From: an uncultured bacterium
GTDB lineage: Bacteria; Muiribacteriota; Ozemobacteria; Ozemobacterales; Ozemobacteraceae
Assembly (NCBI GenBank): GCA_964597625.1
Contig: CAZQYQ010000001.1
Coordinates: 1 to 56,096, forward strand
Direction of reading: 5' to 3'
Length of the DNA: 56,096 bases
Both the position numbers and the translations under genes were made by a program. This document shows, one piece after another, positions 10,325-43,421 of the stretch. A model generated the notes under the pieces. That model saw only the letters and a program-made list of their open reading frames with translations. It did no database searches and was not told the DNA's origin. The first letter of the stretch is position 1. Every line of letters begins with the position of its first letter.

Positions 10325-11136
10325 GCATCCGGTACAATCCGCACCGGATAGCCCGTGAAGCCTGCAGCTGGCCTCAAACACAACCACTCCGGCAGGAATC
10401 TCTCGACCAGGCTGTTCGGCATCGTGCGGCCCGCTGGTGGAGCGGTTCTGATGACTGGACTCCGCTGACGGGGGGGACCCTCTCCGTCGCCCCTGAAACA
10501 GCCGCGGAATACGGATATGATGCCGTGTGCATCGCCTCATTGACCGCGGGGAACGGGGTTCCGGACACGGCGCTTCTGGAATCGGCCTTTCGATGGCTGT
10601 CGCTGGTTCATGACCATTCGACAGACGCGCGGCGTTCCCTCTCCGGCTCCGATGAGAATCCGCTCTGGGATGCCTCGCCCTGGCTCGCTGCGGCGTTCAC
10701 GGCGCGGGACCACCTGGTTCTGCGAGGGCATGCCTATCCGGCGCTGGCTGCGATGCGAAAAGCATGGAAACAGTCGCCACCGGATTCAGCAGCCCCGGCT
10801 TCCGGAATGCGCCTGATCTGGTCACTCCTTTTACCTTTCGCTCCCCTGCTTGCACGGTTTCTTCTCGGGCAGACAGGGGACTGGCCGCCGGCTTCGCTGG
10901 AAACCCTGGCGGAGCCGTTCATGCCGCGCCAGGCCGTGCGCATCGCACTGGAGCAGGGAGGCTGGAACTGGGTCGTCGTGGATGCAGGCCGATTCCAGAC
11001 GGAGCCGGTTCGTGAGCTTGCCGACATCAGATGGATAGCAAACGCTCTCGGGAACCGTTCCTGGACGGTTCGAAACGAGGGGGAAGGATGGAGGGTGTGT
11101 CTGAGCCAACCGCCGGTGACCGCCGTCAATTCCTGA
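10321..11136 (+). CDS. hypothetical Trp-rich soluble protein
   Basis: 271-aa ORF whose ATG overlaps the previous stop (ATGA). Its codon and amino-acid composition is protein-like. No recognisable motif. Confidence 0.5.
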   Translation: MSIRYNPHRIAREACSWPQTQPLRQESLDQAVRHRAARWWSGSDDWTPLTGGTLSVAPETAAEYGYDAVCIASLTAGNGVPDTALLESAFRWLSLVHDHSTDARRSLSGSDENPLWDASPWLAAAFTARDHLVLRGHAYPALAAMRKAWKQSPPDSAAPASGMRLIWSLLLPFAPLLARFLLGQTGDWPPASLETLAEPFMPRQAVRIALEQGGWNWVVVDAGRFQTEPVRELADIRWIANALGNRSWTVRNEGEGWRVCLSQPPVTAVNS

Positions 11137-11507
11137 TCCTGATTCTGAGTTCGCTTCTGATCAATGTCTTCATGGTCTGGTGGACTCCGCGCGCGCTCAG
11201 GCCTTCCGATGCCGTGCCGCTCGGGGAAGTCGTCATCGATACAACCTCCGACTCTCAGGGCAGAATCTGGGGAGAGCCGATTGCGGAACCCGGCAGGCAG
11301 GCCCCTTCGAAAGTGAGCATCAATACCGCTGATCGTGCGGCACTGCTGGCATGCCCCGGTATCGGGCCTGTGACGGCGGATCGCATTCTTGCCGCACGGC
11401 GCGAGGGCGCATTCACGAGCTGGGAGGATTTTCAGCGACGCGTTCCGGGCTTCGGTGCAGCGAAAATGGAGCGGCTCCGCCTCGAAGGCGTGCGGCTCGA
11501 CCCGTGA
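11088..11507 (+). CDS. comEA: ComEA-family helix-hairpin-helix DNA receptor
   Basis: ATG 11088 is preceded by GGGGGAAGG. N-terminal TM (FLILILSSLLINVFMVWW) and a C-terminal HhH module INTADRAALLACPGIGPVTADRILAARREGAFTSWEDFQRRVPGFG. Confidence 0.75.
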   Translation: MEGVSEPTAGDRRQFLILILSSLLINVFMVWWTPRALRPSDAVPLGEVVIDTTSDSQGRIWGEPIAEPGRQAPSKVSINTADRAALLACPGIGPVTADRILAARREGAFTSWEDFQRRVPGFGAAKMERLRLEGVRLDP

Positions 11508-13735
11508 CCGGCATGGGACGCCAGCATCCGAACGATCCCGCCGCGCCGGTTCCGCCGTCTCAGGCTGTTGCCAGAAGCGGTTTCGAGCTGGAAGTCCTGC
11601 CCGCGTTCGTCGCCGGATTCATCATCGGGCTGCAGCTGGCAGGCTTTGTGCCGGCCTGGAGTGCCTGGCTGTTTCTGACCGTCGCGCTTGGCGGCGCGGC
11701 GCTGACGCTCCTGGTGCCGGTCAGAGGTCCTGAAGCCTGGCTGCCGCTCCTCGGCTGCGCGATCGCGTGCGGCGCGTTCGCGGGAACGGCCCGCATGGAA
11801 GTTCCGCCGGATGCTGCCGCCCTTGCGGCATTCAGCGGGGCCTCCGGACGGCTGACCGGCGTCTGTTCGGGTGATTTCAGACCTCTGGCGCGAGGCGGGC
11901 TGGCATTTTCCATCGACGACACGGTTTTCGAAACCGCCTCGCAGGAGATCGCCCTTTCCTGCCGCGTCAGGGTCGAGACGCGCCGCACGGGCATTCTGCC
12001 CGAGCCGGGGCAGCGCTATACGGCAACAGGCACGTTCACGGCGGGCGACGGGAACCGCAGGCCGGCGGGGTTCAGGGCACCGGAGATTGCGGAAGCTTCA
12101 GGCTCGGGCCACATCGGGCCTTCGATCGGGTATCTTCAGCAACAGACCCGTGACGCCATTGCCCGGCTGCTTCCCGACAGGCATCAGGGCTTCATGCAGG
12201 GGCTCCTGCTGGGCGACACGAGCCGGCTGAGCCGCGATGACCGTCGGATGTTCAGAGACACCGGGGTTTCCCACCTGCTCGCGATCTCCGGACAGCATCT
12301 GCTCGTTCTGGCGCTTGTCCTGACGGCCATGCTCCGCTGGAGCGGTATTCCGCCGGTCTCACGTGCGCTGCTCACGATCGCGGTCCTGGTCGGGTATGCG
12401 ATGATGACTTCCGGCCAGCCTTCCGTCTGGCGGGCGGTGGTCATGTATATCGCCGTTACCGTAGCCGCATTCCTGGAAGCCGATCCGGGGCCGGTCAGGC
12501 CGCTGGCGGCCGCGGCTCTCGCGGTCCTCTTCTGGAACCCGGCATGGGTGCACAACGTGGGCTTTCAGTTGAGTTTCCTGGCTGTTCTCGGAATCGTTCT
12601 GGGCAGGCCGCCGCTCGAGTCGCTGTTTCTGCGTTTTCGCCTGCCGAAGCTGCTTGCGAGGTATCTCGCCGTTTCGACGGCAGCAAGTTTTGCGACCATG
12701 CCGCTTGCGGCCTGGCATTTCGGCATGATTCCCCTGGCGGCCTTCATTGTTAATCCGCTTGTGGTCTGGTCGTTCGATTTCATTCTTCCGATCGGCATGC
12801 TCACGGTCATCCTGAGCGGCGTCTGGTTCAAAGCCGCCGTGTTTCTTGCCGCCGGTCTCGCGCTGGCACTGGACGGTTTCATGGCGACGATCGAGCTCGG
12901 CGCGGCATTCCCGATCTTTCTGGTTGATGTCGGAAGCGTTCCGGCAACCATTGTAGCCGGCTTTTACGCATCAATGCTCGGTCTTCTTGCCTGGTGGCAT
13001 CAGGCCAGCGCCGCATCGGCTCCGCTGACGGCGCACCCGCTTCCCAAAGCGGCGCAGCCCGGCCCCGCATCCGGGAAACTCGTTCAGCGGCCATCCTCAC
13101 GGATTGAGATGTACGGGCTGAACCCCCTGACGACCGACAGCCTTCTGGAAGCGATCGATGCCCAGCTGGCGGTTTTCCCGAAGCGGCCCCTGAGGCAGCA
13201 GCGTGGAAAAATCGAGACCGTAACGTTTCCGGTGCAGGGGTTGAGCCCGGAAAGCCAGAATATCTTCTACCGGATCGATGATCTGACGCTCGAAACCCTG
13301 CGCGGACATCCCGACCGGCTGCTCGAAGCCCAGGTCTACTGCATGGCGCTTCTTGGCAACGAGTTGCTTTTCCGGCTGGCGGTACGACTGGAGCCACCCC
13401 CGACCCCTGCCGACATCAAGGTGAAGAAAACGGTAAAAAACCGGTATTTTGCGCTGGCCCTGGCAGCAGAAGCGTTTTTCGACTCGCCTCTCCCCGGGCG
13501 GGCAACGCGCGCAACGCTTGCGATGCTGATTCCAACGTCTTACGAACTCCACAAAACCGGCTGCGAAATGCTTTCCCGATTCACCAGGGTGAGAGATGAA
13601 GACAGCAGGATTGCCCACATGGAATACCGTCAGAAGATTCTCGACTGGTGCCGGGCCCTCATAGAAGCCCTGGCCACCGAGGAAAAGCGAAGAAAGCCCG
13701 GTACCGGCAAGGGAGATCCGTTTGAACCCGTCTGA
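11504..13735 (+). CDS. comEC: ComEC/Rec2 DNA internalisation channel (no metallo-beta-lactamase domain)
   Basis: GTG 11504 overlaps the comEA stop (GTGA); ATG 11513 is an alternative. Polytopic membrane core with the competence-domain signature GVSHLLAISGQHLLVLALVL. The C-terminal ~245 aa are soluble and lack HxHxDH. Confidence 0.8.
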   Translation: MTGMGRQHPNDPAAPVPPSQAVARSGFELEVLPAFVAGFIIGLQLAGFVPAWSAWLFLTVALGGAALTLLVPVRGPEAWLPLLGCAIACGAFAGTARMEVPPDAAALAAFSGASGRLTGVCSGDFRPLARGGLAFSIDDTVFETASQEIALSCRVRVETRRTGILPEPGQRYTATGTFTAGDGNRRPAGFRAPEIAEASGSGHIGPSIGYLQQQTRDAIARLLPDRHQGFMQGLLLGDTSRLSRDDRRMFRDTGVSHLLAISGQHLLVLALVLTAMLRWSGIPPVSRALLTIAVLVGYAMMTSGQPSVWRAVVMYIAVTVAAFLEADPGPVRPLAAAALAVLFWNPAWVHNVGFQLSFLAVLGIVLGRPPLESLFLRFRLPKLLARYLAVSTAASFATMPLAAWHFGMIPLAAFIVNPLVVWSFDFILPIGMLTVILSGVWFKAAVFLAAGLALALDGFMATIELGAAFPIFLVDVGSVPATIVAGFYASMLGLLAWWHQASAASAPLTAHPLPKAAQPGPASGKLVQRPSSRIEMYGLNPLTTDSLLEAIDAQLAVFPKRPLRQQRGKIETVTFPVQGLSPESQNIFYRIDDLTLETLRGHPDRLLEAQVYCMALLGNELLFRLAVRLEPPPTPADIKVKKTVKNRYFALALAAEAFFDSPLPGRATRATLAMLIPTSYELHKTGCEMLSRFTRVRDEDSRIAHMEYRQKILDWCRALIEALATEEKRRKPGTGKGDPFEPV

Positions 13736-15072: not shown

Positions 15073-15123
15073 CCATGGTGACCACCGCGGCGCGGGGGTG
15101 TATGATGCTCTCCGGTATATCTG

Positions 15124-18081
15124 ATGAGTATCTCGATGTCGTTCCACCCACTTCCTCGCCGCGGGGCCCTTCCGACGTATCTCCTCGCGGTGATCCTGAC
15201 GACGCTGACACTGCTCTCTATTTATATAGGTTGGTATAATTCAGCCGTTCAGGAATACGAGTCACGGAAGCGCAGACAGTCGGAACGCGCCGGCCAGATT
15301 CTCGATGCCATGTCGCTCAACTGGCGTCTTCGCGACCAGATATCGATTCTCGGTTCAAGACTCTCAGCAAGACTGGAAGATCTGGGCGCAGGCCACGGCG
15401 TCACGCGTCCCTGGGCTTCCATCTCAACCGGTATCTGGCGCGACTTCCCCGGTGCGCGCGTCTGGCTGTTCGAGTATACGGCGTCATCGGCCGGCTCGCT
15501 GCCGCGGGTGATTCATGCGCCGTTCGGGGGCAATATCGGCCGCCAGGCGATGGCACAGGTTTTCAATCATCTGGTGATCCGCCAGGACAACAGGCAGTCA
15601 TCTGATTCTGATGCAAGGCGAATCACCAAGCTCATGCTCTCCCTGTTCGGCGCAGGCATGGAGCCGACACCTCTCGCTCAAAGCCTTCGAGGGATTCCTG
15701 TGCGTATCACAAACGATGCAAACCAGCAGTATCTCATCTGGGATGTCATCACCGACGGAACCCGGCCGCTGGCAGGGTTCATCGCCCTCATTCCGGAAAA
15801 CACCGGCACAAAGCGCATTGCCATGAAGATTTCTGCCGCTGCCGTGCGGGACCACGATGTCAGGCTGAACGGCTTTATCCGATGCCATCCGTCACAAATC
15901 GGGGATCTGCTTCCGTCGGGTGTCCTGCGTTCTCACGCGTTCATCGCCTGGTGCAGGCGCTTCAGGAGTATCCCGTTCCGGGAACGGGAACGGTCCCTGC
16001 CCCCCTGGGGTGAATCGATCGGAACCTATCGCATCTATACAAAATCGATTCTGAACTCCCCACATCTTGCCGCCGTGTTCATGCCCGCGGAAAAGCCGAC
16101 GAAACTTCCCCTGCCGCTGAAAGCCGCGGGCGCTGTCTTGCTGACCGGCTGGGGAATCGTCCTGATACGGGGTCTGCTGTTGAACCAGTGGCCTGCCATT
16201 TCCCTGGCATGGCGGTTTCTGGGTCTGTATGCGCTCGCATGCGCCCTGCCGCTTTCGGTGGCTGTCCAGACCTTTTCAGGATACATCGGGGAAAGGCGTG
16301 AAGCTCTTCTGCAGGGTCTCGAACGGAGATTGTCACATACGCTCGCCACGATTGACCAGAGCAAAGACCAGCTCCAGAGCCGATATCTGGCGGCATTTAC
16401 CCGCATTCCCTCAAATCAGAAATGGCGGGATGCCATCCAGCGGGATGGGGTAAAAGCGCCCGCCCTGGATGAAATGATGATGCGTGAATTCTCGAGCGCA
16501 TCGCCGTCGCTTCCTCTTTCGGCGCTGTTTCTTTTTGACATGGCCGGCAACGAACTGGCGACGTATAGCGCGACTCTCACTCCGGAGCAGATCGACGGCC
16601 TTCATAAATATTTTAGAATATATTTAATCAACACCCTGCGAAAGCGGTATGAAATCACCCATCGAATGCCGCCTCCGGGCAAAAATCCCCTGTCCGATCG
16701 GGATATTGCATTCTGGGAGGCGTTCAATCAGGTTTCCTATACGAACATGATGCAGCTGGCGGAACTGCGCCGCAGTGTCCCGGATTTCATCCGGGCCGGC
16801 AACAGCTGGATGGTCAAGCTTCACGATTTCATCCAGATCGGAAACAGCCAACAGATCGCATTTCTGATCGCCTGGCATGACCGGCTTCTCGACAAGGAAA
16901 TCATTCGAAACGCGATGATCGAGTTCACCCGCATGAATCCCGACGGGGAATTCATGGCTTACAGAAAGGAACGGGACAGACTCATCCCCCTCATGCCTGT
17001 TTCCAGAGCGCAGAGACTCATCCTGGAACAGCCGGCATTCGCGGCAATGAGACGCGGCGGCGCCTATACGGCAAGAACATCCGGGCCTGACGACTGGTTC
17101 ATTCTGGCAAGGCCATCCGGAACCATGCGTGACATCTGGCTTGCAGCAGGCACTCCGATCACGTCCGAGCTGGCGGATTTCGAGGCCCGCCGCAACAGGC
17201 TTCTGATGCTTCTCTGGCTCAGTCTGTCGATGGTCATTCTTCTTGGCGCCGTCACGGCCTATCGTGTCGTTCCTTCGATCGTGTCCGTCAGAAGTGGGTT
17301 GGCAACGATAGCCGCAGGCAACCTCGATGTCACCGTGAAGCTCGACCGGCCCGACGAACTGGGAATACTGACGCAGGCATTCGATGAAATGACCAAGGGC
17401 CTGCGCCAGAGACAGCGGCTTTCAACCCTCGTCTCGGGCGTCGCGCTTCAGGCGATTTCAGGCGGAACGACAGCCGCCCCCCGTCGTGGCCCCGGAGTCG
17501 TTCTCGTGTCAGACATCAGGTCCTTTACGACTCTCTGCGAAAACCAGCCTGCAGCCATGATTACCGGGATGCTGAACAAGCATTTCGAGGTCATGGCCGA
17601 CATCATTCACCTGCACGGCGGACGTGTGGACAGGTTCATCGGCGATGCCATCCAGGCTGTTTTCGAACCCACCGGGCAGGCGGATCCGGGCCTGAATGAA
17701 CGGGCGGTCAAGGCCGGTCTCGATATGCTGATGGGGCTGAAAACCATCAATGCGGAACGACGAAAGACAGGCCTGTTCACCTATCTCATGGGAGTCGGCT
17801 TGAGCAGCGGGAATCTGCTTTTTGGTGGAATCGGCGATCCAGAGCTCCGATTCGAAATCACGATGCTGGGCGATGCCGTCGCGGCCGCCACCGGACTGGA
17901 GTCTCTCGCCAAATTCGCCCCCGGCATACCGCTTGTCATGGCGCCAAACCTGGTCGAGAGCGGGGGGATATTTTCGGATTCGGTTGTTCCGCTCGCCGGA
18001 CATGAGAGTTGCGCGGCTGTTTTCAAAGCAAAGCTCGATCTTGAATCGTTCCTGTCGGCAGACCGAGGGGAGCGAACATGA
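15124..18081 (+). CDS. membrane sensor-HAMP-class III nucleotide cyclase, 'C1-like' half (metal Asp pair present, Asn/Arg absent)
   Basis: Predicted TMs at about aa 17-38, 334-353, 358-384 and 692-714 flank two ~300-aa extracytoplasmic regions. HAMP (ATIAAGNLDVTVKLDRPDELGILTQAFDEMTKGL). Cyclase homology domain VVLVSDIRSFTTL...GGRVDRFIGDAIQAVFE...ITMLGDAVAAATGLE. Confidence 0.85.
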   Translation: MSISMSFHPLPRRGALPTYLLAVILTTLTLLSIYIGWYNSAVQEYESRKRRQSERAGQILDAMSLNWRLRDQISILGSRLSARLEDLGAGHGVTRPWASISTGIWRDFPGARVWLFEYTASSAGSLPRVIHAPFGGNIGRQAMAQVFNHLVIRQDNRQSSDSDARRITKLMLSLFGAGMEPTPLAQSLRGIPVRITNDANQQYLIWDVITDGTRPLAGFIALIPENTGTKRIAMKISAAAVRDHDVRLNGFIRCHPSQIGDLLPSGVLRSHAFIAWCRRFRSIPFRERERSLPPWGESIGTYRIYTKSILNSPHLAAVFMPAEKPTKLPLPLKAAGAVLLTGWGIVLIRGLLLNQWPAISLAWRFLGLYALACALPLSVAVQTFSGYIGERREALLQGLERRLSHTLATIDQSKDQLQSRYLAAFTRIPSNQKWRDAIQRDGVKAPALDEMMMREFSSASPSLPLSALFLFDMAGNELATYSATLTPEQIDGLHKYFRIYLINTLRKRYEITHRMPPPGKNPLSDRDIAFWEAFNQVSYTNMMQLAELRRSVPDFIRAGNSWMVKLHDFIQIGNSQQIAFLIAWHDRLLDKEIIRNAMIEFTRMNPDGEFMAYRKERDRLIPLMPVSRAQRLILEQPAFAAMRRGGAYTARTSGPDDWFILARPSGTMRDIWLAAGTPITSELADFEARRNRLLMLLWLSLSMVILLGAVTAYRVVPSIVSVRSGLATIAAGNLDVTVKLDRPDELGILTQAFDEMTKGLRQRQRLSTLVSGVALQAISGGTTAAPRRGPGVVLVSDIRSFTTLCENQPAAMITGMLNKHFEVMADIIHLHGGRVDRFIGDAIQAVFEPTGQADPGLNERAVKAGLDMLMGLKTINAERRKTGLFTYLMGVGLSSGNLLFGGIGDPELRFEITMLGDAVAAATGLESLAKFAPGIPLVMAPNLVESGGIFSDSVVPLAGHESCAAVFKAKLDLESFLSADRGERT

Positions 18082-21000
18082 AGAACATGCACAAAAGGCA
18101 TCGTCAGAGCACCACGTCCTCCCTGAGCACGTCCCCCGGGGGGAGTGCGGAACATGGCGCCCCGTCGGCGGGCCGGCCGCGTCCATGGCTGTTCTTTCTG
18201 TTTATCGTCGGCTCTGTCATCTTACTTCTGCCGCCGTGGCTGATCCATACAACCCTGTCTGAAACCGCTGATTCGGAGCTTCACAGACGGCAGCAGGCCA
18301 GTTCAGAGCTTCTCGAAACGTCCATGAATCTGGCTCGGTATCAGGATCTGGGCCGGCTGCTCATCGTGGAGCAACTCGAAGAGGAAGCGTTGCGCTTCGC
18401 GGCGCGGGTTTCGAATCAAAGCGATATCTCTCTTGCATCTGAAACGGCCCTGATTGCAACGCGCCTGAAGAAAGGCGGACTCACTCCCACCCTGATCATA
18501 ACCCTCCGGAAATCCGCGGGAAACGCCCGCCCATCGCCAGGCGCAACGGGTGTATGCGGAGCCCATTCCCAGGCCGAGTTTGAATTCCTCCATCAGTTTC
18601 TTGATCTGAACACGCAGGCTCTCACAGGCTCCGTTCCAGCAACCGAGGCCAGGAACATCTCCGAATCCGTCACCCGGTATCTCGGTTCGATTCAGACGCT
18701 CTCCTACTTCAGTCACGAAATGCGCGGAATTGCAGCCCAAATCCAGTTTCGACATGAAGATGCAATCCTTTTCTGGATGCCGCTTCTCAATCCACGAAAA
18801 GCAGCCGGCATTCTCCGGTCACCGGTCACCGCCGATCTGTTCAACCCCGACTCTTCGACTCTTTGCGCGGAAACATGGAAAGAACTGGTTTCAGGCGGCA
18901 TCCTCTTCATCGTGCCCCCGCCGGCTTCCGGGCAAAAAGGCATCAGAACGACAATCCGCCGATACGCCGCACAAGGGATCCGTCTTGCGTTCATTCCGGA
19001 AGATGGACGCGGAATGATAGCACATAACGCATGGTATACATCGCCCTTGAAATCATGTCTCCAGGGCTCACCCCCTCCCTGGAACTGGGTCATCAGGCGG
19101 GGGACCGCTTTTGTCGGAAGACGGTATGAGATCATCGGCGCCCTCCAATTACCCGCAGAGCCTTCAGGCGGAGGAACACGGGCTTTCCTGCTCCGGGCGC
19201 TCTGCTGGGCGGCAGCACTCGCCGGCCTGATCACATGGTTCATTTCCGTTTTTCGTGGAAGAGCCCTCGCAACCGGCCTCGGCAACCAGCTCACCGCAGG
19301 CTTTCTGCTGGCTGCACTGTTTCCGTTGACAACGACATTTCTTATTATCGAGCCGTATGCAACCGAGCGTTACGAGGTGCGGGCACAGGAAATCCGTGCC
19401 GGCCTGCGCAGCACGATCAAGCTGCTCGAGCTGCAAAGCCTCTCCCACAGACCACGCCTGTGGCATGTGATGTCGCAGATGTTCTATGATCCGGCCTTTC
19501 TCGAAGCGGCCCGGCGGGATGCAGCCGGCACCCGGAGTGGAGCGGAACAGGCTCTGCAAAAGCAGCTGCATGACAAGTTCATGTATCTGTATGAAAAGCC
19601 CCTCGACGTCTCGCTGCGCAAGTTGATCATCGCCGGCATGGGAAACTATGTGCGCGACCAGGCGAGACCGGGAGATTCCGGCGGCAGCACAAGCATGCTT
19701 CCGCAGCTTTTGAGCCTGATCGCCAACGAAGCCATTTCAGCCCGGGGCGGAGTCAATTCCTCATTCGCAAAAGAAGCGTTGGCAATGGATAATGAGCGGG
19801 GATCCGCTGCAAAAACCAAGCGGGAAATGCTCTGGGATGTCGGGAGAGAGATGTTTCTTGCCATCCTCGGCCCCGAATCCTTTTTCGATTGGCTGAACGG
19901 CAAGAACGAACCTCTGCTCATCGAAGTCGGCCTCGGCATGGTCATGATCTACGAGATTCTTCTGCCGCAAGGCCCACAGCCTGAATTTCTGCTCACCATC
20001 CTCCTCAAGGCCGAGTTTCACGAGAACAAAGCGATGGCGCGCACGCTTTCCGGAAGATGGCGTGACGGGCCGGTCTTTGTCTTCCAACGGGATTTTCTGG
20101 GTGAGCCGAGTCAGCCGGAATCAGGCGAACGGCATCCGTTCCTGCGTCGTATCGCAAGGCAGATAGATGCCGCGGCAAAGCCATTGAGCCTGCGTCTGAG
20201 CGACGGAAATACCAGCTGGCTGATCGAGGGGGCTCCGGGCGAACATTCGCGCCAGTTCATCTTCACGGCCGTTGCCGACGAGGCCCCGCTGCGCGCTGAA
20301 ACAGAATCCATCAAAAGAAGACTTACGGCAATGCTGCTGATTGCCGCGCTGATTACCCTGCTGATCGCCGCAAGCGCGACGCAGGACGTCGTTTCCCCGA
20401 TCAACCGTCTGATTGAAGGCATTCGCGCCATCAGCGCCGGAACGTATTCCTATCGGGTGGACGTGGACCGCTCGGATGAGCTCGGAGAACTTGCCGGCGC
20501 TTTCAACACGATGGCCGGTGGTCTCGAGGAACGAAATATTCTTAGTCATATGGTTTCTGGTTCAGCGCTGAATGCGACGACATCCCAGGACTACGAAGCG
20601 AAAGCACGCGAAGGACGGCGCCACACGGTGATCGTCTGTTTCGTTTCATTCGTGGGTGCGGAAGCCGAAATGGCCGCCATGACGCCGGAAGAAGCGCTAT
20701 CCTTTCTGAACCGGCAGGTTGTGGCCGCCTGCCGGATTCTGCACTCCGCCGGCGCCGATATCGACAAGCTGCTGGGGCCAAAAATCCTGGCGCTTTTTCC
20801 GCCGGAACTCGGCATGGTCGCGGTGGAAACCGCCCGTGCGCTGCAGACTGCGCACGGTGACGGGCAGCTTGATTTGAGGCCAGCCATCGGCCTGACAAGA
20901 GGGCCTGTCATTTCCGGAATCCTGGGCTCCGGAGATCGCCGCGATCATACGGTGATCGGCGATACGGTGAATCTTGCCGCGCGCGCCGCATCGATTGCCG

Positions 21001-21173
21001 AAAAACTTGAGCCGATCGCGGTGGTTCTCGATGATGCCCTTCGCACGCACATCGGGGATATCGGGGAATTCGAATCGCTCGGAGAAACGTTTGTGAAGGG
21101 CAAAACGAAACCTGTTCGGCTCGTAAGACTTCTCGACCGGCAGGAGAAAAAAGACCCGGGAGGCAGTGCATGA
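18078..21173 (+). CDS. paralogous membrane sensor-HAMP-class III cyclase-homology protein, 'C2-like' half (metal Asp lost; Lys/Thr/Asn/Arg present)
   Basis: ATGA overlap with the upstream cyclase and a GAGGGGAG RBS. Same 4-TM double-sensor layout. HAMP (IEGIRAISAGTYSYRVDVDRSDELGELAGAFNTMAGGL). Cyclase domain VIVCFVSFVGAE...DKLLGPKILALF...HTVIGDTVNLAARAAS...FESLGETFVKGKTKPVRLVRLL. Confidence 0.8.
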   Translation: MKNMHKRHRQSTTSSLSTSPGGSAEHGAPSAGRPRPWLFFLFIVGSVILLLPPWLIHTTLSETADSELHRRQQASSELLETSMNLARYQDLGRLLIVEQLEEEALRFAARVSNQSDISLASETALIATRLKKGGLTPTLIITLRKSAGNARPSPGATGVCGAHSQAEFEFLHQFLDLNTQALTGSVPATEARNISESVTRYLGSIQTLSYFSHEMRGIAAQIQFRHEDAILFWMPLLNPRKAAGILRSPVTADLFNPDSSTLCAETWKELVSGGILFIVPPPASGQKGIRTTIRRYAAQGIRLAFIPEDGRGMIAHNAWYTSPLKSCLQGSPPPWNWVIRRGTAFVGRRYEIIGALQLPAEPSGGGTRAFLLRALCWAAALAGLITWFISVFRGRALATGLGNQLTAGFLLAALFPLTTTFLIIEPYATERYEVRAQEIRAGLRSTIKLLELQSLSHRPRLWHVMSQMFYDPAFLEAARRDAAGTRSGAEQALQKQLHDKFMYLYEKPLDVSLRKLIIAGMGNYVRDQARPGDSGGSTSMLPQLLSLIANEAISARGGVNSSFAKEALAMDNERGSAAKTKREMLWDVGREMFLAILGPESFFDWLNGKNEPLLIEVGLGMVMIYEILLPQGPQPEFLLTILLKAEFHENKAMARTLSGRWRDGPVFVFQRDFLGEPSQPESGERHPFLRRIARQIDAAAKPLSLRLSDGNTSWLIEGAPGEHSRQFIFTAVADEAPLRAETESIKRRLTAMLLIAALITLLIAASATQDVVSPINRLIEGIRAISAGTYSYRVDVDRSDELGELAGAFNTMAGGLEERNILSHMVSGSALNATTSQDYEAKAREGRRHTVIVCFVSFVGAEAEMAAMTPEEALSFLNRQVVAACRILHSAGADIDKLLGPKILALFPPELGMVAVETARALQTAHGDGQLDLRPAIGLTRGPVISGILGSGDRRDHTVIGDTVNLAARAASIAEKLEPIAVVLDDALRTHIGDIGEFESLGETFVKGKTKPVRLVRLLDRQEKKDPGGSA

Positions 21174-22279
21174 CAACACCGCAACGGAGTATTCCGCCGT
21201 GTCTTCCACCGGCACGCCCCATCCCGCCAAAACAGCTTTTTCAACGCCTCGAAGACCTGGGATACAAAGGGCAGGATGATGCCCGGCGGGCTCTCTGCCT
21301 GGCCGCATACAGACATCTGCGGAGGTTCGAGCTGCTTTCCCACCGGTCATGCCGCCCGGAGGAGCTGCCGCCCAAGGCGAATCTTCTGCTGATGGGCCCC
21401 ACCGGGTGTGGAAAGACATTTCTCGTGGAACAGCTGTTCGGAAAACTGCTGATGCTGCCAACGGTTCTGATCGACATCACCGGCTTTTCTGAAACGGGCT
21501 ATGTCGGTGATTCGGTCAGGACAGTTCTGACGCGCATGCTCCTGGCGGCAAAAGACCGGCCTGAACTCGCCAGGCACGGAGTTGTCTGCCTCGACGAGTT
21601 CGACAAGCTGGCCGGTTCACATTCCAACATCCGTTTCGACGGCGCCGGCACCACGAAGGACGTCACCGGGTATGGAGTCCAGAAAGAGCTGCTGAAAATG
21701 ATCGAGGGCTGCACGATGGATGTTCCGCTCGGCTTCACTGAATCGATTTATACCGAGCGCACGGAACTGGACACGCGGGAAATCCTCTTCGTCGCCAGCG
21801 GGGCATTTTCAGGTTTCAAGGGCGCCGCCCGCTTCACGTCCGAAGGCTCCGAATCCATCGGATTCAATCGGACCCCTTTCCGGAAAGAGGCGATAGCCTA
21901 CCGGCTGGCCGAAGAGGAGTCGGAAAACATCGCCGCATTCCAGCAATACGGGTTTCTGCCCGAACTGATCGGAAGATTCGGCCGGATCGTCGCCATGCCG
22001 TCGCTCGACCGTGACACCCTGCGCAGAATCCTGACCGAGTCGCTGCTCCCACGATATAAGCACGAGTTCGCGCTTGAAGGGATCAAGCTGGAAATCGACG
22101 ATGCCGTTCTCGAAAAAATTATATCTGACGCAATAAAACGGCAGATCGGTGCGCGCGGCCTCGGCAGTCGGCTGACTTCCATTCTCGAACAGGCGGCCTT
22201 TTCCGGTTTCGGAGGGGAGAGCGGAACGATATCCGTGACGATGCAGAAAGGCCGGCCAACGGCGATTCATCAGCCGTGA
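21170..22279 (+). CDS. ClpX-family AAA+ unfoldase paralog lacking the N-terminal zinc-binding domain
   Basis: ATGA overlap with the upstream gene. Walker A LLLMGPTGCGKT, pore-1 loop ETGYVGDSV, Walker B VVCLDEFDKL, an IGF-type loop (SESIGFNRTP) and sensor-2 GARGLGS. There is no CxxC...CxxC ribbon at the N-terminus. 369 aa. Confidence 0.85.
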   Translation: MTTPQRSIPPCLPPARPIPPKQLFQRLEDLGYKGQDDARRALCLAAYRHLRRFELLSHRSCRPEELPPKANLLLMGPTGCGKTFLVEQLFGKLLMLPTVLIDITGFSETGYVGDSVRTVLTRMLLAAKDRPELARHGVVCLDEFDKLAGSHSNIRFDGAGTTKDVTGYGVQKELLKMIEGCTMDVPLGFTESIYTERTELDTREILFVASGAFSGFKGAARFTSEGSESIGFNRTPFRKEAIAYRLAEEESENIAAFQQYGFLPELIGRFGRIVAMPSLDRDTLRRILTESLLPRYKHEFALEGIKLEIDDAVLEKIISDAIKRQIGARGLGSRLTSILEQAAFSGFGGESGTISVTMQKGRPTAIHQP

Positions 22280-22385
22280 CATGTCGGGGCCGGCTGATCG
22301 AATCATGGACAAATGGGTAATCCCGTGTATATTGTACAGAAGATAGTAGATGAGAGATCACATTTCGTGATTCAAGTGAGGATCA

Positions 22386-23675
22386 ATGCGGCCACTTCCG
22401 CTGATTAGCGGCAATCCGGCCCTGGTGGCTGAAGTCGAGCGGCTGATGCCCGCATCGGGCAGCCAGGGATTTCGTCTGGCTGTCGTCTCCGACTCCCAGA
22501 CCGCCCGTGAGTTCCTGACGCTCGAGATGCCCGAACTTGTTCTGCTCGATTTTTCCCGCCCGGAACTCAAGCCGTTCGACCTCCTGGATTTCATTCTCAG
22601 CGATCCCTGGCTTGCGCCAGGCGGAATCATCGCGTTCCATGATAACGACCAGGAAATCCGGCAGCTGGAATCGATCCGCGAGGCGAACTTCATCGTCATC
22701 GTCCACGAGCGCAACCTCGAGGATTACCTGCCACGCATCATGAGCATCATTCATCGCAACCGGCGGATTCTCTTCCAGCACAGCCTCGGCGGAGGACTCA
22801 TCACGAACATTTCGGGCTCGTTCAAACTTGAGAATCACATTATCGAGGCCCGCTGCTACGCGAACCTGCTGTGTAATTTTCTTTTCTCGGGCGGGCGCAT
22901 CGATCTCGAAGGGAAAAGCAATCTCTGCTTTGCCCTGTTTGAACTGCTTGTAAATGCGATCGAACACGGCAACTGCGGGATCTCGTTCGAAGAGAAGAAC
23001 AACTGGCTGGAACAGGGTGGCTCGATGATCGATCTGATCGATCGGCGCAGTAAAGAACCCGGCATCTCCTCGAGGCGGGTCACGTTTGAATACAATATCT
23101 GCCAGGCCGGCTCGCGATTCCTGATCTCCGATGAAGGCTCAGGCTTCAACTGGAAACAGTTTCTTGACCGCGGCACAGATGAAGCCCAGTTCAGACTGCA
23201 CGGCCGGGGCATTCTCCTGGCAAGCCGTTTTACGCAGAACATGAACTATACCGAGTCCGGCACCTCGGTCACCTTCGGAATAAGCCACACGACAAATGCC
23301 GCGCCGCTGCCGCCCGCTCTGTTCACCAACATCGAACCGCTGCACGTCTCTCAGGGGGAATTACTGTTTCGAGAGGGTGATCCCAGCACCTACTTGTATT
23401 ACATCGTGAAGGGCCGCTACGACGTGATGATGAATGGGTATCTCGTATCGACGCTTTCGCCCGATGACATGTTTCTCGGCGAGATGTCGTTTCTGCTCGG
23501 GAAAAACCGTTCGGCATCGATCAAAGCTCAGACCGACGGGGCGCTGATCCGCATTTCAAAAAAAGAGTTCATCGAAGCCGTGAGACGCCGCCCGCATTAT
23601 GCCCTGCTGCTCTCCCGGCTTCTTGCTCAGCGGCTGCAGAGATCCAATATCCGGAATACGGTATCACGAACCTGA
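22386..23675 (+). CDS. three-domain signalling protein: receiver-like N-domain, GHKL (RsbW/SpoIIAB-type) ATPase-like domain, C-terminal cyclic-nucleotide-binding domain
   Basis: GAGGA RBS. REC-like ...FRLAVVSDSQTAREFLTLEMPELVLLDFS... The GHKL N-box is FELLVNAIEHGN, with G-boxes SDEGSGF and HGRGILLASRF. The cNMP domain GELLFREGDPSTYLYYIVKGRY...FLGEMSFLLGKNRSASIKA carries a GE...R[ST]A phosphate-binding cassette. The 3' end overlaps the convergent gene by 12 nt. Confidence 0.8.
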   Translation: MRPLPLISGNPALVAEVERLMPASGSQGFRLAVVSDSQTAREFLTLEMPELVLLDFSRPELKPFDLLDFILSDPWLAPGGIIAFHDNDQEIRQLESIREANFIVIVHERNLEDYLPRIMSIIHRNRRILFQHSLGGGLITNISGSFKLENHIIEARCYANLLCNFLFSGGRIDLEGKSNLCFALFELLVNAIEHGNCGISFEEKNNWLEQGGSMIDLIDRRSKEPGISSRRVTFEYNICQAGSRFLISDEGSGFNWKQFLDRGTDEAQFRLHGRGILLASRFTQNMNYTESGTSVTFGISHTTNAAPLPPALFTNIEPLHVSQGELLFREGDPSTYLYYIVKGRYDVMMNGYLVSTLSPDDMFLGEMSFLLGKNRSASIKAQTDGALIRISKKEFIEAVRRRPHYALLLSRLLAQRLQRSNIRNTVSRT

Positions 23676-24467
23676 GTGGTTCTTCTTCAATTCGAATTTC
23701 AGCATGACAGGGTCTGAAGCGGTATCCGGAATGAAGTCCGTCACTTCCCTCCCGGCGCGGTCGAGTGAGGCTTTTTCGCGGATGAGAAGCTGCTTTTTCA
23801 ACAGGTTCATCACATCCTTGGCCTCGTGCTCGGTGCATGCGGCGCCGAATGCCGCCAGCCGCGAAGCCCAGGGGGCATCGCGCACAAAGCGTTCGCCGGA
23901 AGCCAGCAGCATCAGAATTGCCGCCGCAGGCCTTGCGAGAGGCGATGATCTGACGGCTTTCTCAGGATGCAGACCATACCAGATCAGTCTGACGGCCGCT
24001 TCAGGAAACAGATGCAGCATCCGCCGGACTCGGGCGCCGAACGTCAGCCGGACCTCCTTGAGATGAGTCTCGGGATCTTCTTCCGCACTGCTCGCCCGCA
24101 AACGGGCGAGAAACACCCAGCCTGCAATCAGCGCATCGCCCAGCAGCAGCATCCAGATGATGAACGGCATGGCTGGTCTGAGACCGAGCAGCGCCGGAAT
24201 GACCCAGGCACCGGCGTCGGTACGGTCAAGAAATCCGAACAGAAGTCCGATTTCGATCACGCAATCGATCACCAGGTAACCGAGCATCGAGACGAGAGCA
24301 AGCACCAGAAGATGGCCCAGGACGATCCCGATGCCGAGGAGGAGCATGACCCGGCACTCTTTCAGATCCGGCGGGCGCCCTGTTTCGAAGACGTCCCGAT
24401 CGAGATAGCGCGCAAGCGCATCGAGACGATCACGCTTCAGAATCGGATCATCCTGCCATCCGGCCAC
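23664..24467 (-). CDS. hypothetical polytopic membrane protein
   Basis: Sits immediately downstream of the M20 peptidase gene. I prefer GTG 24467, 8 nt after GGGAGG, over the TTG at 24473. It has 4-5 hydrophobic helices (VMLLLGIGIVLGHLLVLALVSMLGYLVI..., PFIIWMLLLGDALIAGWVFLA). No family recognised. Confidence 0.5.
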   Translation of the reverse strand: MAGWQDDPILKRDRLDALARYLDRDVFETGRPPDLKECRVMLLLGIGIVLGHLLVLALVSMLGYLVIDCVIEIGLLFGFLDRTDAGAWVIPALLGLRPAMPFIIWMLLLGDALIAGWVFLARLRASSAEEDPETHLKEVRLTFGARVRRMLHLFPEAAVRLIWYGLHPEKAVRSSPLARPAAAILMLLASGERFVRDAPWASRLAAFGAACTEHEAKDVMNLLKKQLLIREKASLDRAGREVTDFIPDTASDPVMLKFELKKNHSGS

Positions 24468-24482
24468 AAACAATACCTCCCG

Positions 24483-35062: not shown

Positions 35063-35148
35063 GATCCTGTCTCCTTCGGCCCAGGAGAGTGTCTCTTCGA
35101 ACTCGCTCTCACGCATGTCATCACATGGAACGAAGCGGCTGAGCCGGG

Positions 35149-37812: not shown

Positions 37813-37854
37813 CGATGCAATATCCTTTCATATCTATCACGACAATCCGCTTCA

Positions 37855-42998: not shown

Positions 42999-43010
42999 CG
43001 CAAAGTCTCC

Positions 43011-43397: not shown

Positions 43398-43421
43398 CCC
43401 GGCTCGGGTTCCTTTCGTTTT

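What the first reader, a model, noticed from the sequence alone, without database searches (positions are those of the whole stretch)
15124..23675. Cyclase pair, ClpX-like unfoldase and cNMP-binding effector form one co-directional module: candidate second-messenger-gated unfolding/proteolysis system
**Linkage.** Four consecutive plus-strand genes are tightly linked. Cyclase 1 to cyclase 2 and cyclase 2 to the ClpX-like gene both use ATGA overlaps (18078-18081 and 21170-21173). A 106-nt gap then precedes a protein that ends in an intact cNMP-binding domain.

**Roles.** The locus therefore encodes a signal generator (a double-sensor heterodimeric cyclase), a likely cyclic-nucleotide receptor, and an AAA+ unfoldase that keeps the ClpP-docking-type IGF loop but lacks the substrate/adaptor zinc domain.

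**Novelty.** I do not know of a described system in which a ClpX paralog is translationally coupled to nucleotide cyclases. The functional link between cNMP and control of unfolding or degradation is inference from gene order only.
Basis: inference. Interest (0 to 1): 0.75.

Follow-up and report, generated by a model that had tools for sequence, protein, structure and literature searches.

The report
Split adenylate cyclase, cAMP-binding anti-sigma, passenger ClpX
The four genes are real, but comparison with relatives supports only a two-subunit membrane adenylate cyclase, perhaps signalling to a cyclic-nucleotide-binding anti-sigma-type regulator, and the ClpX-like unfoldase looks like an older neighbour of the locus, not a shown part of the pathway.

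Summary
**Observation: confirmed.** The four + strand ORFs, both ATGA overlaps and the 106-nt gap are exactly as described.

**The parts**
- **Cyclases:** cyc1 and cyc2 have complementary half active sites. Distant relatives fuse both halves into one ~2000-aa protein. An obligate heterodimeric class III adenylate cyclase is well supported.
- **ClpX-like gene:** it keeps Walker A/B, pore-1 GYVG and an IGF-type loop. It lacks the zinc domain and the RKH loop. It belongs to a large multi-phylum paralog family that resembles M. xanthus ClpX3.
- **Fourth protein:** a receiver-like domain, an RsbW/LvrC-type anti-sigma (Bergerat) domain and an intact cNMP-binding domain.

**Interpretation: not supported for ClpX.** The window is from a Candidatus Ozemobacteraceae MAG. 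Five related lineages have cyc1-cyc2-p4 plus an HD-domain gene and no ClpX-like gene. One has cyc1-cyc2-ClpX-like and no p4. Riflebacteria MAG L010 has ComEC-DUF218-SSB-ClpX-like and no cyclases. Twenty-three more distant family loci have neither cyclase nor p4 nearby. A promoter-like site precedes p4 whatever gene lies upstream.

**Best reading:** a lineage-specific cAMP cassette (heterodimeric cyclase, possibly feeding the cNMP-binding anti-sigma protein) sits in an old syntenic string that already held the ClpX paralog. The cyclase-p4 link is itself unproven outside this family.

The parts
15124..18081 (+). cyc1: 985-aa membrane cyclase subunit. It has four predicted TM segments, two extracytoplasmic regions of about 300 aa, HAMP (aa 721-762, nt 17284-17409) and a class III cyclase domain (aa 793-930, nt 17500-17913). 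It keeps both metal-binding Asp (VSDIRSFT, FIGDA) but lacks the transition-state Asn/Arg (GDAVAAATG). It is therefore the C1-like half.
18078..21173 (+). cyc2: 1031-aa membrane cyclase subunit with the same topology. HAMP is at aa 771-818 (nt 20388-20531) and the cyclase domain at about aa 848-1015 (nt about 20619-21122). It lacks both metal Asp (FVSFVG, LGPK). It keeps the substrate Lys (DKLLG), the Thr at -7 from Asn, and Asn/Arg (GDTVNLAARA). It is therefore the C2-like half, with residues of the ATP-specific (Lys/Thr) type.
21170..22279 (+). ClpX-like AAA+ unfoldase paralog (369 aa). Motifs kept: Walker A GPTGCGKT (nt 21395-21418), pore-1 GYVG (nt 21497-21508) and the IGF loop (nt 21857-21865). 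It has no zinc-binding domain and no RKH loop, and carries a 5-residue insertion in the pore-2 region. Its start overlaps the cyc2 stop (ATGA).
   Evidence: dN/dS against L001 is 0.07.
22306..22333 (+). Promoter-like site TGGACA-16-TATATT in the 106-nt gap between the ClpX-like gene and p4. It is the best sigma-70-type match in 14.4-24.6 kb. In the same gap, a TATAGT-like -10 about 35-40 nt upstream of the p4 ATG (GATAGT in the window, near 22346-22351) aligns in all six aligned loci. It is there whether the upstream gene is ClpX-like, cyc2 or an M48 peptidase.
22386..23675 (+). p4: a 429-aa three-domain regulator. It has a receiver-like (beta-alpha)5 domain (aa 1-124, nt 22386-22757). It has an RsbW/SpoIIAB/LvrC-type Bergerat domain (Pfam HATPase_c_2, aa 175-297, nt 22908-23276) with N, G1 and G2 boxes. 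It has a cNMP-binding domain (aa 320-401, nt 23343-23588) with the phosphate-binding cassette GEMSFLLGKNRSAS.
15078..15106 (+). Weak promoter-like site (GTGACC-17-TATGAT, 9 of 12) in the 51-nt gap between SSB and cyc1.
   Evidence: This is a consensus match only.
23664..24473 (-). orf269: a predicted 3-TM protein on the opposite strand, inside an 807-bp stretch found only in this window. It is not part of the module. It fills the slot where relatives carry a tandem HD_5 (HD-GYP-like) gene or nothing.

Best explanation
The region is a cyclic-AMP signalling cassette specific to the Ozemobacteraceae. It sits inside an older conserved gene string, ComEC-DUF218-SSB-...-ClpX-like.

**Proposed pathway**
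- cyc1 and cyc2 form an obligate heterodimeric membrane adenylate cyclase with a single catalytic site. cyc1 supplies the two metal-binding Asp. cyc2 supplies the Lys/Thr that select the base and the Asn/Arg that stabilise the transition state. This step is inferred from residues and from a natural fusion.
- Each subunit contributes two extracytoplasmic sensor regions and a HAMP transducer.
- The cAMP made is most plausibly read by p4. Its cNMP-binding domain would control an RsbW/LvrC-like anti-sigma or serine-kinase domain, so the output would be release of a sigma factor or partner switching, that is, transcription. This step is inferred from domain architecture, structure similarity and adjacency in six lineages.
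- In five related lineages a tandem HD-domain protein follows p4 and could end a signal.

**The ClpX-like gene**
- It is a ClpX3-type paralog without the zinc domain or RKH loop. It probably docks on ClpP through its conserved IGF-type loop.
- It belongs to the ancestral backbone of the locus. It is next to the cyclases by descent, and no functional tie to cNMP has been shown.
For: **Heterodimer**
- The complementary residues are conserved in all aligned orthologs, down to 28-33% identity.
- They map onto solved cyclases.
- In L099 and L100 the two halves are one ORF of about 2000 aa. In L100 Pfam finds two HAMP and two cyclase stretches.

**p4**
- Pfam finds HATPase_c_2 and cNMP_binding.
- The AlphaFold model has pLDDT 81 and an N-terminal (beta-alpha)5 fold.
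- The best PDB match is LvrC, a Rec + Bergerat anti-sigma protein, at E = 3.8e-14. CRP, HCN and SthK cNMP domains follow (PMC13269768).
- G365, E366 and A377 of the phosphate-binding cassette are invariant, and R375 nearly so, across 44 homologs.

**Locus comparison**
- cyc1-cyc2-p4-HD with no ClpX-like gene: L090, L091, L096, L097 (with an M48 peptidase gene between cyc2 and p4) and L104.
- cyc1-cyc2-ClpX-like-p4: only the window and L001.
- cyc1-cyc2-ClpX-like with no p4: L003.
- ComEC-DUF218-SSB-ClpX-like with no cyclases: L010. L006 also pairs SSB with the ClpX-like gene and has no cyclases.

**ClpX-like family**
- Twenty-three more distant loci (45-52% identity, many phyla) show no cyclase or p4 within 10 kb.
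- In the Dadabacteria/Thermodesulfobacteriota group the gene overlaps a MiaB/RimO-like gene by 4 bp. An overlap is therefore not a sign of shared function for this family.

**Transcription**
- A promoter-like element upstream of p4 is conserved whatever gene precedes it.

**Literature**
- M. xanthus ClpX3 has the same anatomy: no N-terminal domain, no RKH, an isolated gene, and a heat phenotype (PMC11423568).
Against: **For a ClpX-like link after all**
- The 4-bp overlap of cyc2 and the ClpX-like gene is kept in two lineages whose cyc2 proteins are only about 30% identical (window and L003). That could reflect selection for co-expression.

**Against the cyclase-p4 link**
- It rests only on adjacency within one bacterial family, where the whole neighbourhood (ComEC to the M20 peptidase) is syntenic.
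- Distant p4 relatives have no cyclase nearby (L093, L102, L103).
- The distant fused cyclases have no p4 nearby.

**Other gaps**
- No sigma factor, STAS or PP2C gene is present in the 56-kb window.
- The receiver-like domain lacks several canonical receiver residues.
- Nothing here is experimental.
Confidence: 0.6

Rival explanations
1. All four genes form one functional module. cNMP from the cyclase pair is sensed by p4, which gates substrate delivery to, or is itself processed by, the ClpX-like unfoldase, possibly with ClpP.
For: - The cyc1/cyc2 and cyc2/ClpX-like junctions are ATGA overlaps with SD-like sequences.
- The cyc2/ClpX-like overlap also occurs in the deeply diverged L003.
- All four genes are under purifying selection.
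- From general knowledge: anti-sigma factors are classical Clp substrates, and second-messenger-gated ClpXP delivery is known in Caulobacter (PopA with c-di-GMP).
Against: - Five cyclase + p4 lineages have no ClpX-like gene at the locus.
- L010 and L006 keep the ClpX-like gene in the same backbone with no cyclases or p4.
- Twenty-three distant ClpX-like loci lack both.
- The p4 family's main clades (Chitinivibrionales, Fibrobacter) differ from the main ClpX-like clades (Myxococcota, Dadabacteria, Planctomycetota) in the named hits.
- p4 appears to have its own promoter.
- No ClpP gene is in the window.
Confidence: 0.12
2. The ClpX-like protein is coupled to the cyclases only. For example, it could handle turnover, quality control or subunit balance of the two large membrane cyclase subunits. 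p4 would play no part.
For: - The cyc2/ClpX-like translational overlap is kept in the window, L001 and L003, even though L003 lacks p4.
- The ClpX-like gene is the most constrained of the four genes compared (cyc2, ClpX-like, p4, M20; dN/dS 0.07).
Against: - The cyclase pair persists without a neighbouring ClpX-like gene in five lineages.
- The ClpX-like gene persists without the cyclases in L010 and L006.
- The family as a whole sits in unrelated housekeeping contexts.
Confidence: 0.08
3. None of the neighbours are functionally linked apart from cyc1 and cyc2. p4 responds to cNMP from other cyclases or to other inputs, and the whole arrangement is family-level synteny.
For: - The entire stretch from ComEC to the M20 peptidase is syntenic across the family.
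- p4 relatives in other phyla and the fused cyclases are not adjacent to each other.
- A p4 paralog in the same family sits next to a HAMP-PP2C phosphatase instead.
Against: - p4 directly follows the cyclase pair in six of seven cyclase-bearing lineages, even though the junction is otherwise variable (ClpX-like, M48 or nothing).
- A cNMP receptor beside a cNMP generator is the simplest pairing.
Confidence: 0.15
4. The locus is a Pycsar-like anti-phage system, with a cyclase plus an effector that carries a cNMP-binding domain.
For: PADLOC gives weak matches of the cyclase domains to PycC (E = 4.5e-12 and 3.9e-8). It matches the p4 cNMP domain to the PycTIR effector models (E about 1e-15).
Against: - The matches cover only the generic cyclase and cNMP domains.
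- There is no TIR or membrane-disrupting effector domain.
- The cyclases are roughly 1000-aa HAMP-linked membrane sensors with Lys/Thr residues of the ATP type.
- The neighbourhood is housekeeping (LigA, transketolase, ComEC, SSB, PPDK-like).
- It is stably syntenic, not a variable defence island.
Confidence: 0.02

Closest known systems
Canonical bacterial ClpX (E. coli, M. tuberculosis; NCBIfam TIGR00382 / NF003745)
   Same: - The AAA+ large and small domains are the same (PDB ClpX hits E = 3e-51 to 1e-46).
- Walker A/B and pore-1 GYVG are present.
- An IGF-type ClpP-docking loop is conserved as [ILVM]-G-[FLY] across the family.
   Different: - There is no N-terminal C4 zinc-binding domain.
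- The RKH loop is replaced (LGFTESIY).
- The pore-2 region has a 5-residue insertion.
- Scores fall below the ClpX equivalog cut-offs (228.8 against 359; 193.1 against 370.75).
- Identity to canonical ClpX genes is about 33-38%, against 45-67% within its own family.
Myxococcus xanthus ClpX3 (MXAN_2743), PMC11423568
   Same: As described in the paper, it lacks the N-terminal domain and the RKH motif. It is an isolated, non-essential gene that coexists with a canonical clpP-clpX operon. Myxococcota proteins are among the closest family members here.
   Different: I could not compare the sequences directly. ClpX3 is not reported next to cyclases. Its only known phenotype is heat sensitivity.
Mammalian membrane adenylyl cyclase C1/C2 pseudo-heterodimer and soluble guanylyl cyclase alpha/beta (general knowledge); homodimeric M. 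tuberculosis Rv1625c/Cya (PMC9433096)
   Same: It is a class III catalytic fold with a single composite active site. One half gives the metal Asp residues. The other gives the base-specifying and transition-state residues.
   Different: - The two halves are separate bacterial genes, fused only in distant relatives (L099, L100).
- Each half has a 4-TM topology with two large extracytoplasmic regions plus HAMP, not 6 TM.
- My literature searches found no described natural bacterial heterodimer of this kind. That is absence from a limited library, not proof.
LvrC of Leptospira (PDB 9qih; PMC13269768) and RsbW/SpoIIAB anti-sigma serine kinases
   Same: - It has a receiver-type N-terminal domain followed by a Bergerat-fold anti-sigma domain (Foldseek E = 3.8e-14).
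- The N, G1 and G2 ATP-binding boxes are present.
   Different: - p4 adds a C-terminal cNMP-binding domain.
- Its receiver domain lacks several canonical residues. The acidic pair and the conserved Lys are not evident, though an Asp at the beta3 end (D55) is present.
- No sigma, STAS or PP2C partner is nearby.
Second-messenger-gated proteolysis: Caulobacter PopA/c-di-GMP with ClpXP, and cA4-activated CalpL Lon protease cleaving an anti-sigma factor (general knowledge; PopA context in PMC8020655)
   Different: No evidence here ties the ClpX-like protein to p4 or to cNMP. The architectures are unrelated.

Membership tests
Canonical ClpX | Score above the curated equivalog cut-off | tested here: not met
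   NF003745 scores 228.8 bits against a cut-off of 359. TIGR00382 scores 193.1 against 370.75.
Canonical ClpX | N-terminal C4 zinc-binding domain | tested here: not met
   Only about 19 residues precede the AAA+ module, with a single Cys. The alignment starts at model position 62-69.
Canonical ClpX | Pore-1 GYVG and IGF-type ClpP-docking loop | tested here: met
   GYVG is at aa 110-113. SIGF at aa 229-232 aligns with LGF of the ClpX in 8yd0. The Gly is invariant and the motif [ILVM]-G-[FLY] is kept in 14 family members.
Canonical ClpX | RKH loop | tested here: not met
   The region aligned to the RKH position of the ClpX in 8yd0 reads LGFTESIY. Assignment of the loop position is from general knowledge of E. 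coli ClpX.
Canonical ClpX | Functional partnership with ClpP | not testable with these tools
The rest of the genome was not available.
ClpX3-type paralog lacking ZBD and RKH (M. xanthus MXAN_2743) | No N-terminal domain, no RKH, and a gene not linked to clpP | tested here: met
   compared with the description in PMC11423568.
ClpX3-type paralog lacking ZBD and RKH (M. xanthus MXAN_2743) | Direct sequence relationship to MXAN_2743 | not tested
Myxococcota members of the family are at about 50-52% identity.
Heterodimeric class III nucleotidyl cyclase (C1/C2-like) | Both proteins carry a class III cyclase domain | tested here: met
   PF00211 scores 36.7 and 27.5 bits against a cut-off of 21.9. PDB adenylate cyclase hits have E = 4e-20 and 5.5e-13.
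Heterodimeric class III nucleotidyl cyclase (C1/C2-like) | Catalytic residues split between the two chains | tested here: met
   - cyc1 has both metal Asp, with Asn replaced by Ala and Arg by Gly.
- cyc2 has the first Asp replaced by Ser and the GD motif by GP, and keeps Lys, Thr, Asn and Arg.
- The pattern is conserved in 4-5 orthologs down to 28-33% identity.
Heterodimeric class III nucleotidyl cyclase (C1/C2-like) | Physical heterodimer with activity only when combined | not testable with these tools
   Indirect support: the two genes are always adjacent with a 4-bp overlap (23-nt gap in L003). In L099 and L100 they are fused into one ORF.
RsbW/SpoIIAB/LvrC-type anti-sigma (Bergerat fold) | HATPase_c_2 domain with ATP-binding N, G1 and G2 boxes | tested here: met
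   PF13581 scores 35.8 bits against a cut-off of 27.4. The motifs ELLVNAIEHGN, DEGSGF and HGRGI are present. E186, N190, H194, D249, G251, G253, G273 and G275 are invariant in 44 homologs.
RsbW/SpoIIAB/LvrC-type anti-sigma (Bergerat fold) | Rec + Bergerat architecture like LvrC | tested here: met
   Foldseek's top hit is 9qih at E = 3.8e-14 over 311 columns. TM-scores are low (0.36 and 0.51) because the relative domain orientation differs. The model has (beta-alpha)5 in residues 2-124.
RsbW/SpoIIAB/LvrC-type anti-sigma (Bergerat fold) | Cognate sigma factor, STAS protein or PP2C phosphatase encoded nearby | tested here: not met
   None was found among the window's genes. A paralog in L101 does sit beside a HAMP-SpoIIE phosphatase.
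Cyclic-nucleotide-binding (CRP/PKA-R type) domain | Beta-barrel with a phosphate-binding cassette (G-E ... R-[ST]-A) | tested here: met
   PF00027 scores 60.7 bits. The cassette reads GEMSFLLGKNRSAS. Structural matches to cAMP-bound CRP, SthK and HCN have rmsd about 2 A. Ligand binding itself cannot be tested here.
Pycsar anti-phage system | Dedicated pyrimidine cyclase, a cNMP-activated toxic effector (TIR or TM), and a defence-island context | tested here: not met
   Only generic domain-level PADLOC matches were found. There is no effector domain. The residues are of the ATP type. The context is housekeeping and syntenic.
Single operon of four genes | Co-transcription across all junctions | not testable with these tools
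   The overlaps favour coupling of cyc1, cyc2 and the ClpX-like gene. The best promoter-like site lies in the gap before p4 and is conserved in relatives.

The most novel reading that the evidence does not exclude
The ClpX3-type unfoldase really is wired into the pathway in the window's lineage. cAMP made by the split cyclase binds p4. The cAMP-bound (or cAMP-free) anti-sigma protein, or its sigma partner, is then recognised and unfolded or degraded by the ZBD-less, RKH-less ClpX paralog with ClpP. That would be a cyclic-nucleotide-gated proteolytic switch on a sigma/anti-sigma pair. In sister lineages an HD-domain gene, present exactly where the ClpX-like gene is absent, would provide another way to reset the signal.
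Probability: 0.1. Interest if true: 0.75.

Novelty: new variant of a known kind. Interest (0 to 1): 0.35.

Why it matters
**If the best reading holds, two points are worth a specialist's attention.**
- **A natural bacterial split cyclase.** This is a two-gene class III adenylate cyclase with complementary half-sites, and distant relatives carry a single-chain fused form. It mirrors the C1/C2 design of mammalian membrane cyclases. It could serve as a simple model for how two different sensor halves control one catalytic site.
- **An uncharacterised regulator family.** Proteins of about 428 aa combining a receiver-like domain, an RsbW/LvrC-type anti-sigma domain and a cNMP-binding domain occur in Riflebacteria, Fibrobacterota, Planctomycetota and Margulisiibacteriota. 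They would link cAMP directly to sigma-factor control.

**What does not hold up.** The headline idea of cNMP-gated unfolding by a ClpX paralog is not supported by gene-neighbourhood evidence. It should not be carried forward without experiments.

Tried and rejected
- **Second copy in the window.** I checked three minus-strand ORFs (40176-42998, 37855-40179, 36706-37812) whose sizes resemble the module. They are a PPDK-like enzyme, an MMPL transporter and DUF3419. Rejected.
- **Defence system.** PADLOC gives only generic cyclase and cNMP matches. Rejected.
- **Remnant of the HD gene.** tblastn of the L090/L091 HD protein against the window gave nothing better than E = 0.5. The 807-bp stretch holding orf269 has no homolog in any fetched locus.
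- **Gene calling.** My first greedy longest-ORF caller picked wrong frames in GC-rich loci. I replaced it with a self-trained codon-usage caller.
- **RNA elements.** Rfam and tRNA scans of the whole window found nothing.
- **Literature.** Searches for a described ClpX-cyclase link and for natural bacterial heterodimeric class III cyclases found none. One candidate survey paper had no relevant passage in the held text.
- **Metagenome scan.** A scan with the cyc2 sensor region returned only 6 loci. The protein search returned 11 proteins. The cyclase pair is therefore rare, and the comparative sample is small: about 7 cyclase-bearing lineages plus L010/L006, which keep the ClpX-like gene without cyclases.
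- **Not possible here.** I could not check whether lineages lacking the ClpX-like gene at this locus keep one elsewhere. I could not check whether these genomes also carry a canonical clpP-clpX.

Full report
**1. Observation**

The four ORFs exist as stated: 15124-18081, 18078-21173, 21170-22279 and 22386-23675, all on the + strand. Both junctions read ATGA, and each has an SD-like GGGGAG or GGGAGG a few bases upstream. The last gap is 106 nt.

Pfam assigns the following:
- HAMP + Guanylate_cyc to both large proteins.
- AAA_2 + ClpB_D2-small to the 369-aa protein.
- HATPase_c_2 + cNMP_binding to the 429-aa protein.

Co-direction and 4-bp overlaps are weak evidence in this genome. By my codon-usage gene calls, 5 of 31 co-directional junctions in the window are 4-bp overlaps. 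All seven genes from ComEC (11351) to p4 are on the + strand.

**2. The organism and its setting**

The 429-aa protein is identical to a database protein from a 56,096-bp contig. NCBI names that protein's source as a Candidatus Ozemobacteraceae MAG. The closest genome hits to the ClpX-like protein are Candidatus Riflebacteria MAGs.

The window is ordinary chromosome. It encodes LigA, transketolase, ComEC, SSB, a PPDK-like enzyme, an MMPL transporter, a MatE transporter and OmpA-like proteins. It has no tRNA or Rfam element. It has no ClpP, sigma factor, STAS or PP2C gene.

**3. The cyclase pair**

Each protein has four predicted TM segments that bracket two regions of about 300 aa. These are followed by HAMP and the catalytic domain. 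The "double sensor" description is therefore reasonable.

The catalytic residues are split between the two chains:
- cyc1 keeps both metal-binding Asp (VSDIRSFT, FIGDA). It has Ala and Gly where the transition-state Asn and Arg should be (GDAVAAATG).
- cyc2 has Ser and Pro in place of the two Asp (FVSFVG, LGPK). It keeps the substrate Lys, a Thr seven residues before the Asn, and the Asn/Arg pair (DHTVIGDTVNLAARA).

These assignments come from alignments to solved cyclases. The pattern is conserved in every aligned ortholog, including L003 at 28-33% identity. Lys/Thr is the pairing of ATP-specific bacterial cyclases such as bPAC, which carries the same residues in the alignment.

Two distant relatives (L099, L100; about 23-28% identity) encode both halves in a single ORF of about 2000 aa. 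In L100 Pfam finds two HAMP and two cyclase stretches. That is a Rosetta-stone argument for a physical heterodimer.

The family is rare. The protein search found 11 proteins and the JGI metagenome scan found 6 loci.

**4. The ClpX-like protein**

It matches solved ClpX structures at E = 3e-51 to 1e-46 from about residue 20 onward. It scores below both NCBIfam ClpX cut-offs.

Features present:
- Walker A GPTGCGKT.
- Walker B DEFD.
- Pore-1 GYVG.
- SIGF aligned with the LGF docking loop.

Features absent or altered:
- The zinc-binding domain is missing.
- The RKH loop is missing (LGFTESIY in its place).
- The pore-2 region carries a 5-residue insertion.

The protein belongs to a large family of about 370-400-aa proteins at 45-67% identity. 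Members occur in Planctomycetota, Myxococcota, Armatimonadota, Dadabacteria, Thermodesulfobacteriota and others. Canonical ClpX genes are only 33-38% identical. The [ILVM]-G-[FLY] loop is conserved across the family, and a few members carry N-terminal Cys pairs.

M. xanthus ClpX3 is described with the same anatomy: no N-terminal domain, no RKH, an isolated and deletable gene, and a heat phenotype (PMC11423568). I could not align the two sequences directly.

Compared with L001, the gene is under strong purifying selection (dN/dS 0.07).

**5. The fourth protein (p4)**

An AlphaFold model built from 44 homologs has pLDDT 81. It shows three parts:
- An N-terminal (beta-alpha)5 receiver-like fold.
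- A Bergerat-fold domain.
- A cNMP-binding beta-barrel with a C-terminal helix.

The best PDB match is LvrC of Leptospira (9qih, E = 3.8e-14). cAMP-bound CRP, SthK and HCN domains follow. The authors describe LvrC as a Rec domain joined to an RsbW/SpoIIAB-like anti-sigma domain (PMC13269768).

p4 has the N, G1 and G2 ATP-binding boxes and an intact phosphate-binding cassette. Most of these residues are invariant in the family, and R375 is nearly so.

Full-length homologs at 45-51% identity are common in Chitinivibrionales, Chitinispirillaceae, Fibrobacter, Planctomycetes and Margulisiibacteriota.

p4 is therefore best read as a cNMP-regulated anti-sigma or serine-kinase protein. Its expected output is transcription, not proteolysis.

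**6.

The loci were fetched through the ClpX-like protein, p4 and cyc2. They were tabulated by tblastn.

| Loci | Gene order |
|---|---|
| Window, L001/L002 | SSB-cyc1-cyc2-ClpX-like-p4-M20 |
| L090, L091/L092, L096, L104 | SSB-cyc1-cyc2-p4-HD(421 aa, tandem HD_5); M20 follows where the contig extends (not in L104) |
| L097 | cyc1-cyc2-M48 peptidase-p4-HD-M20 |
| L003/4/5 | ComEC-DUF218-SSB-cyc1-cyc2-ClpX-like, then an opposite-strand hydrolase and IS66; no p4 |
| L010 (Riflebacteria MAG) | ComEC-DUF218-SSB-ClpX-like; no cyclases |
| L006 | SSB-cytochrome c-ClpX-like; no cyclases |
| L007 | glycosyltransferase-ClpX-like-156-aa ORF |

Trees of cyc1, cyc2 and p4 give three sister clades: (window, L001), (L090, L097) and (L091, L096). 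L003 is the outgroup. L104 was not included in the trees.

The simplest history has four parts:
- The ClpX-like gene is an old member of the ComEC-DUF218-SSB string.
- The cyclase pair lies between SSB and the ClpX-like gene in some lineages.
- The ClpX-like gene was lost from, or moved away from, the locus in most cyclase-bearing lineages.
- p4 stayed.

None of the 23 more distant ClpX-like loci (L011-L033) has a cyclase or p4 within 10 kb. In the Dadabacteria/Thermodesulfobacteriota group the gene overlaps a MiaB/RimO-like methylthiotransferase by 4 bp.

**7. Transcription signals**

The best sigma-70-like match in 14.4-24.6 kb is in the gap between the ClpX-like gene and p4 (22306-22333, 10 of 12). 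A TATAGT-like -10 about 35-40 nt before the p4 ATG aligns in L090, L091, L096, L097, L001 and the window. It is there whether the upstream gene is cyc2, M48 or ClpX-like. These are consensus matches, not proof. They do argue that p4 can be transcribed on its own.

**8. What remains uncertain**

- **The cyclase-p4 link.** It rests only on adjacency within one bacterial family whose whole neighbourhood is syntenic. Distant p4 relatives (L093, L102, L103) have no cyclase next door, and the fused cyclases have no p4 next door. A p4 paralog in the same family sits beside a HAMP-PP2C phosphatase and an NHL protein. That fits partner-switching biology.
- **A possible ClpX-like link.** The cyc2/ClpX-like overlap persists in two lineages whose cyc2 proteins share only about 30% identity. 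This is the one observation that keeps a functional link alive.

**9. Verdict**

The anatomy is confirmed. Comparative evidence does not support including the ClpX paralog in a single second-messenger-gated unfolding system.

The locus is a new variant of ordinary cyclic-nucleotide signalling. It is of moderate interest for the split (and elsewhere fused) cyclase and for the uncharacterised Rec-anti-sigma-cNMP protein family.

Noticed in passing
L100:5918-11932 (+) and L099:1371-7130 (+, cut by the contig end): Distant relatives (about 23-28% identity) carry the cyc1-like and cyc2-like halves as one ORF of about 2000 aa. In L100 Pfam finds two HAMP and two cyclase stretches. This is a bacterial single-chain counterpart of the split pair. 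The neighbours of L100 are ATP-citrate lyase genes and a methyltransferase, with no ClpX-like gene or p4.
   Followed up: partly
window 23676-24482 (orf269 at 23664-24473, - strand): This 807-bp stretch is absent from the close relative L001 (ClpX-like protein 93% identical), which has a 27-bp gap there. It encodes a 269-aa protein with 3 predicted TM segments and coding-like codon usage. It has no Pfam match and no homolog in any fetched locus. Its 3' end overlaps the p4 stop by 12 bp in convergent orientation.
   Followed up: partly
L090:11287-12552, L091:9957-11222, L096:13344-14609, L097:14472-15737, L104:12331-13596: In the lineages that lack the ClpX-like gene at the locus, a 421-aa protein with two HD_5 (HD-GYP-like) domains follows p4, sometimes with a 4-bp overlap. 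It is absent from the window, L001 and L003. In this small sample the ClpX-like and HD genes are mutually exclusive at the locus.
   Followed up: partly
L097:12140-13048 (+): An M48-family peptidase gene sits between cyc2 and p4. The cyc2/p4 junction is therefore a variable slot holding the ClpX-like gene, M48 or nothing.
   Followed up: no
L018-L031 (e.g. L022:9944-11068 and 11065-12390): In MAGs labelled Dadabacteria, Thermodesulfobacteriota, bacterium HR37 and Spirochaetia, the ClpX-like gene overlaps a downstream MiaB/RimO-like methylthiotransferase (UPF0004 + Radical_SAM + TRAM) by 4 bp. The Pfam check covered two loci (L018, L022). ORFs of the same size and position occur in about ten others. 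An aspartate/ornithine carbamoyltransferase lies upstream in L022, with same-sized ORFs in several others.
   Followed up: partly
L101:2846-8284; L102:5872-8407: A p4 paralog in another Ozemobacteraceae MAG follows a 959-aa HAMP-SpoIIE (PP2C) membrane phosphatase and a 425-aa NHL-repeat protein. An NHL-repeat protein is also next to the p4-like gene in a Planctomycetes MAG. This hints at a partner-switching module.
   Followed up: no
L016:9833-11107 and protein P0014: Some members of the otherwise ZBD-less ClpX-like family have N-terminal extensions with Cys pairs (CSFC...CNKC; CEAC). These could be a variant zinc ribbon, or the ORF starts may be over-extended.
   Followed up: no
window 34589-35116 (- strand): A 175-aa CYTH-domain protein. 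It belongs to the triphosphate tunnel metalloenzyme / class IV cyclase superfamily and lies elsewhere in the window.
   Followed up: no
window 36706-46135 (- strand): A co-directional run of genes: an AMP-binding enzyme, a UbiA-family prenyltransferase (below the Pfam cut-off), a 128-aa ORF, a 940-aa PPDK_N + PEP-utilizer protein, an MMPL/Patched-like transporter and DUF3419. Two of the junctions are 4-bp overlaps. It may be a lipid or secondary-metabolite cluster.
   Followed up: no
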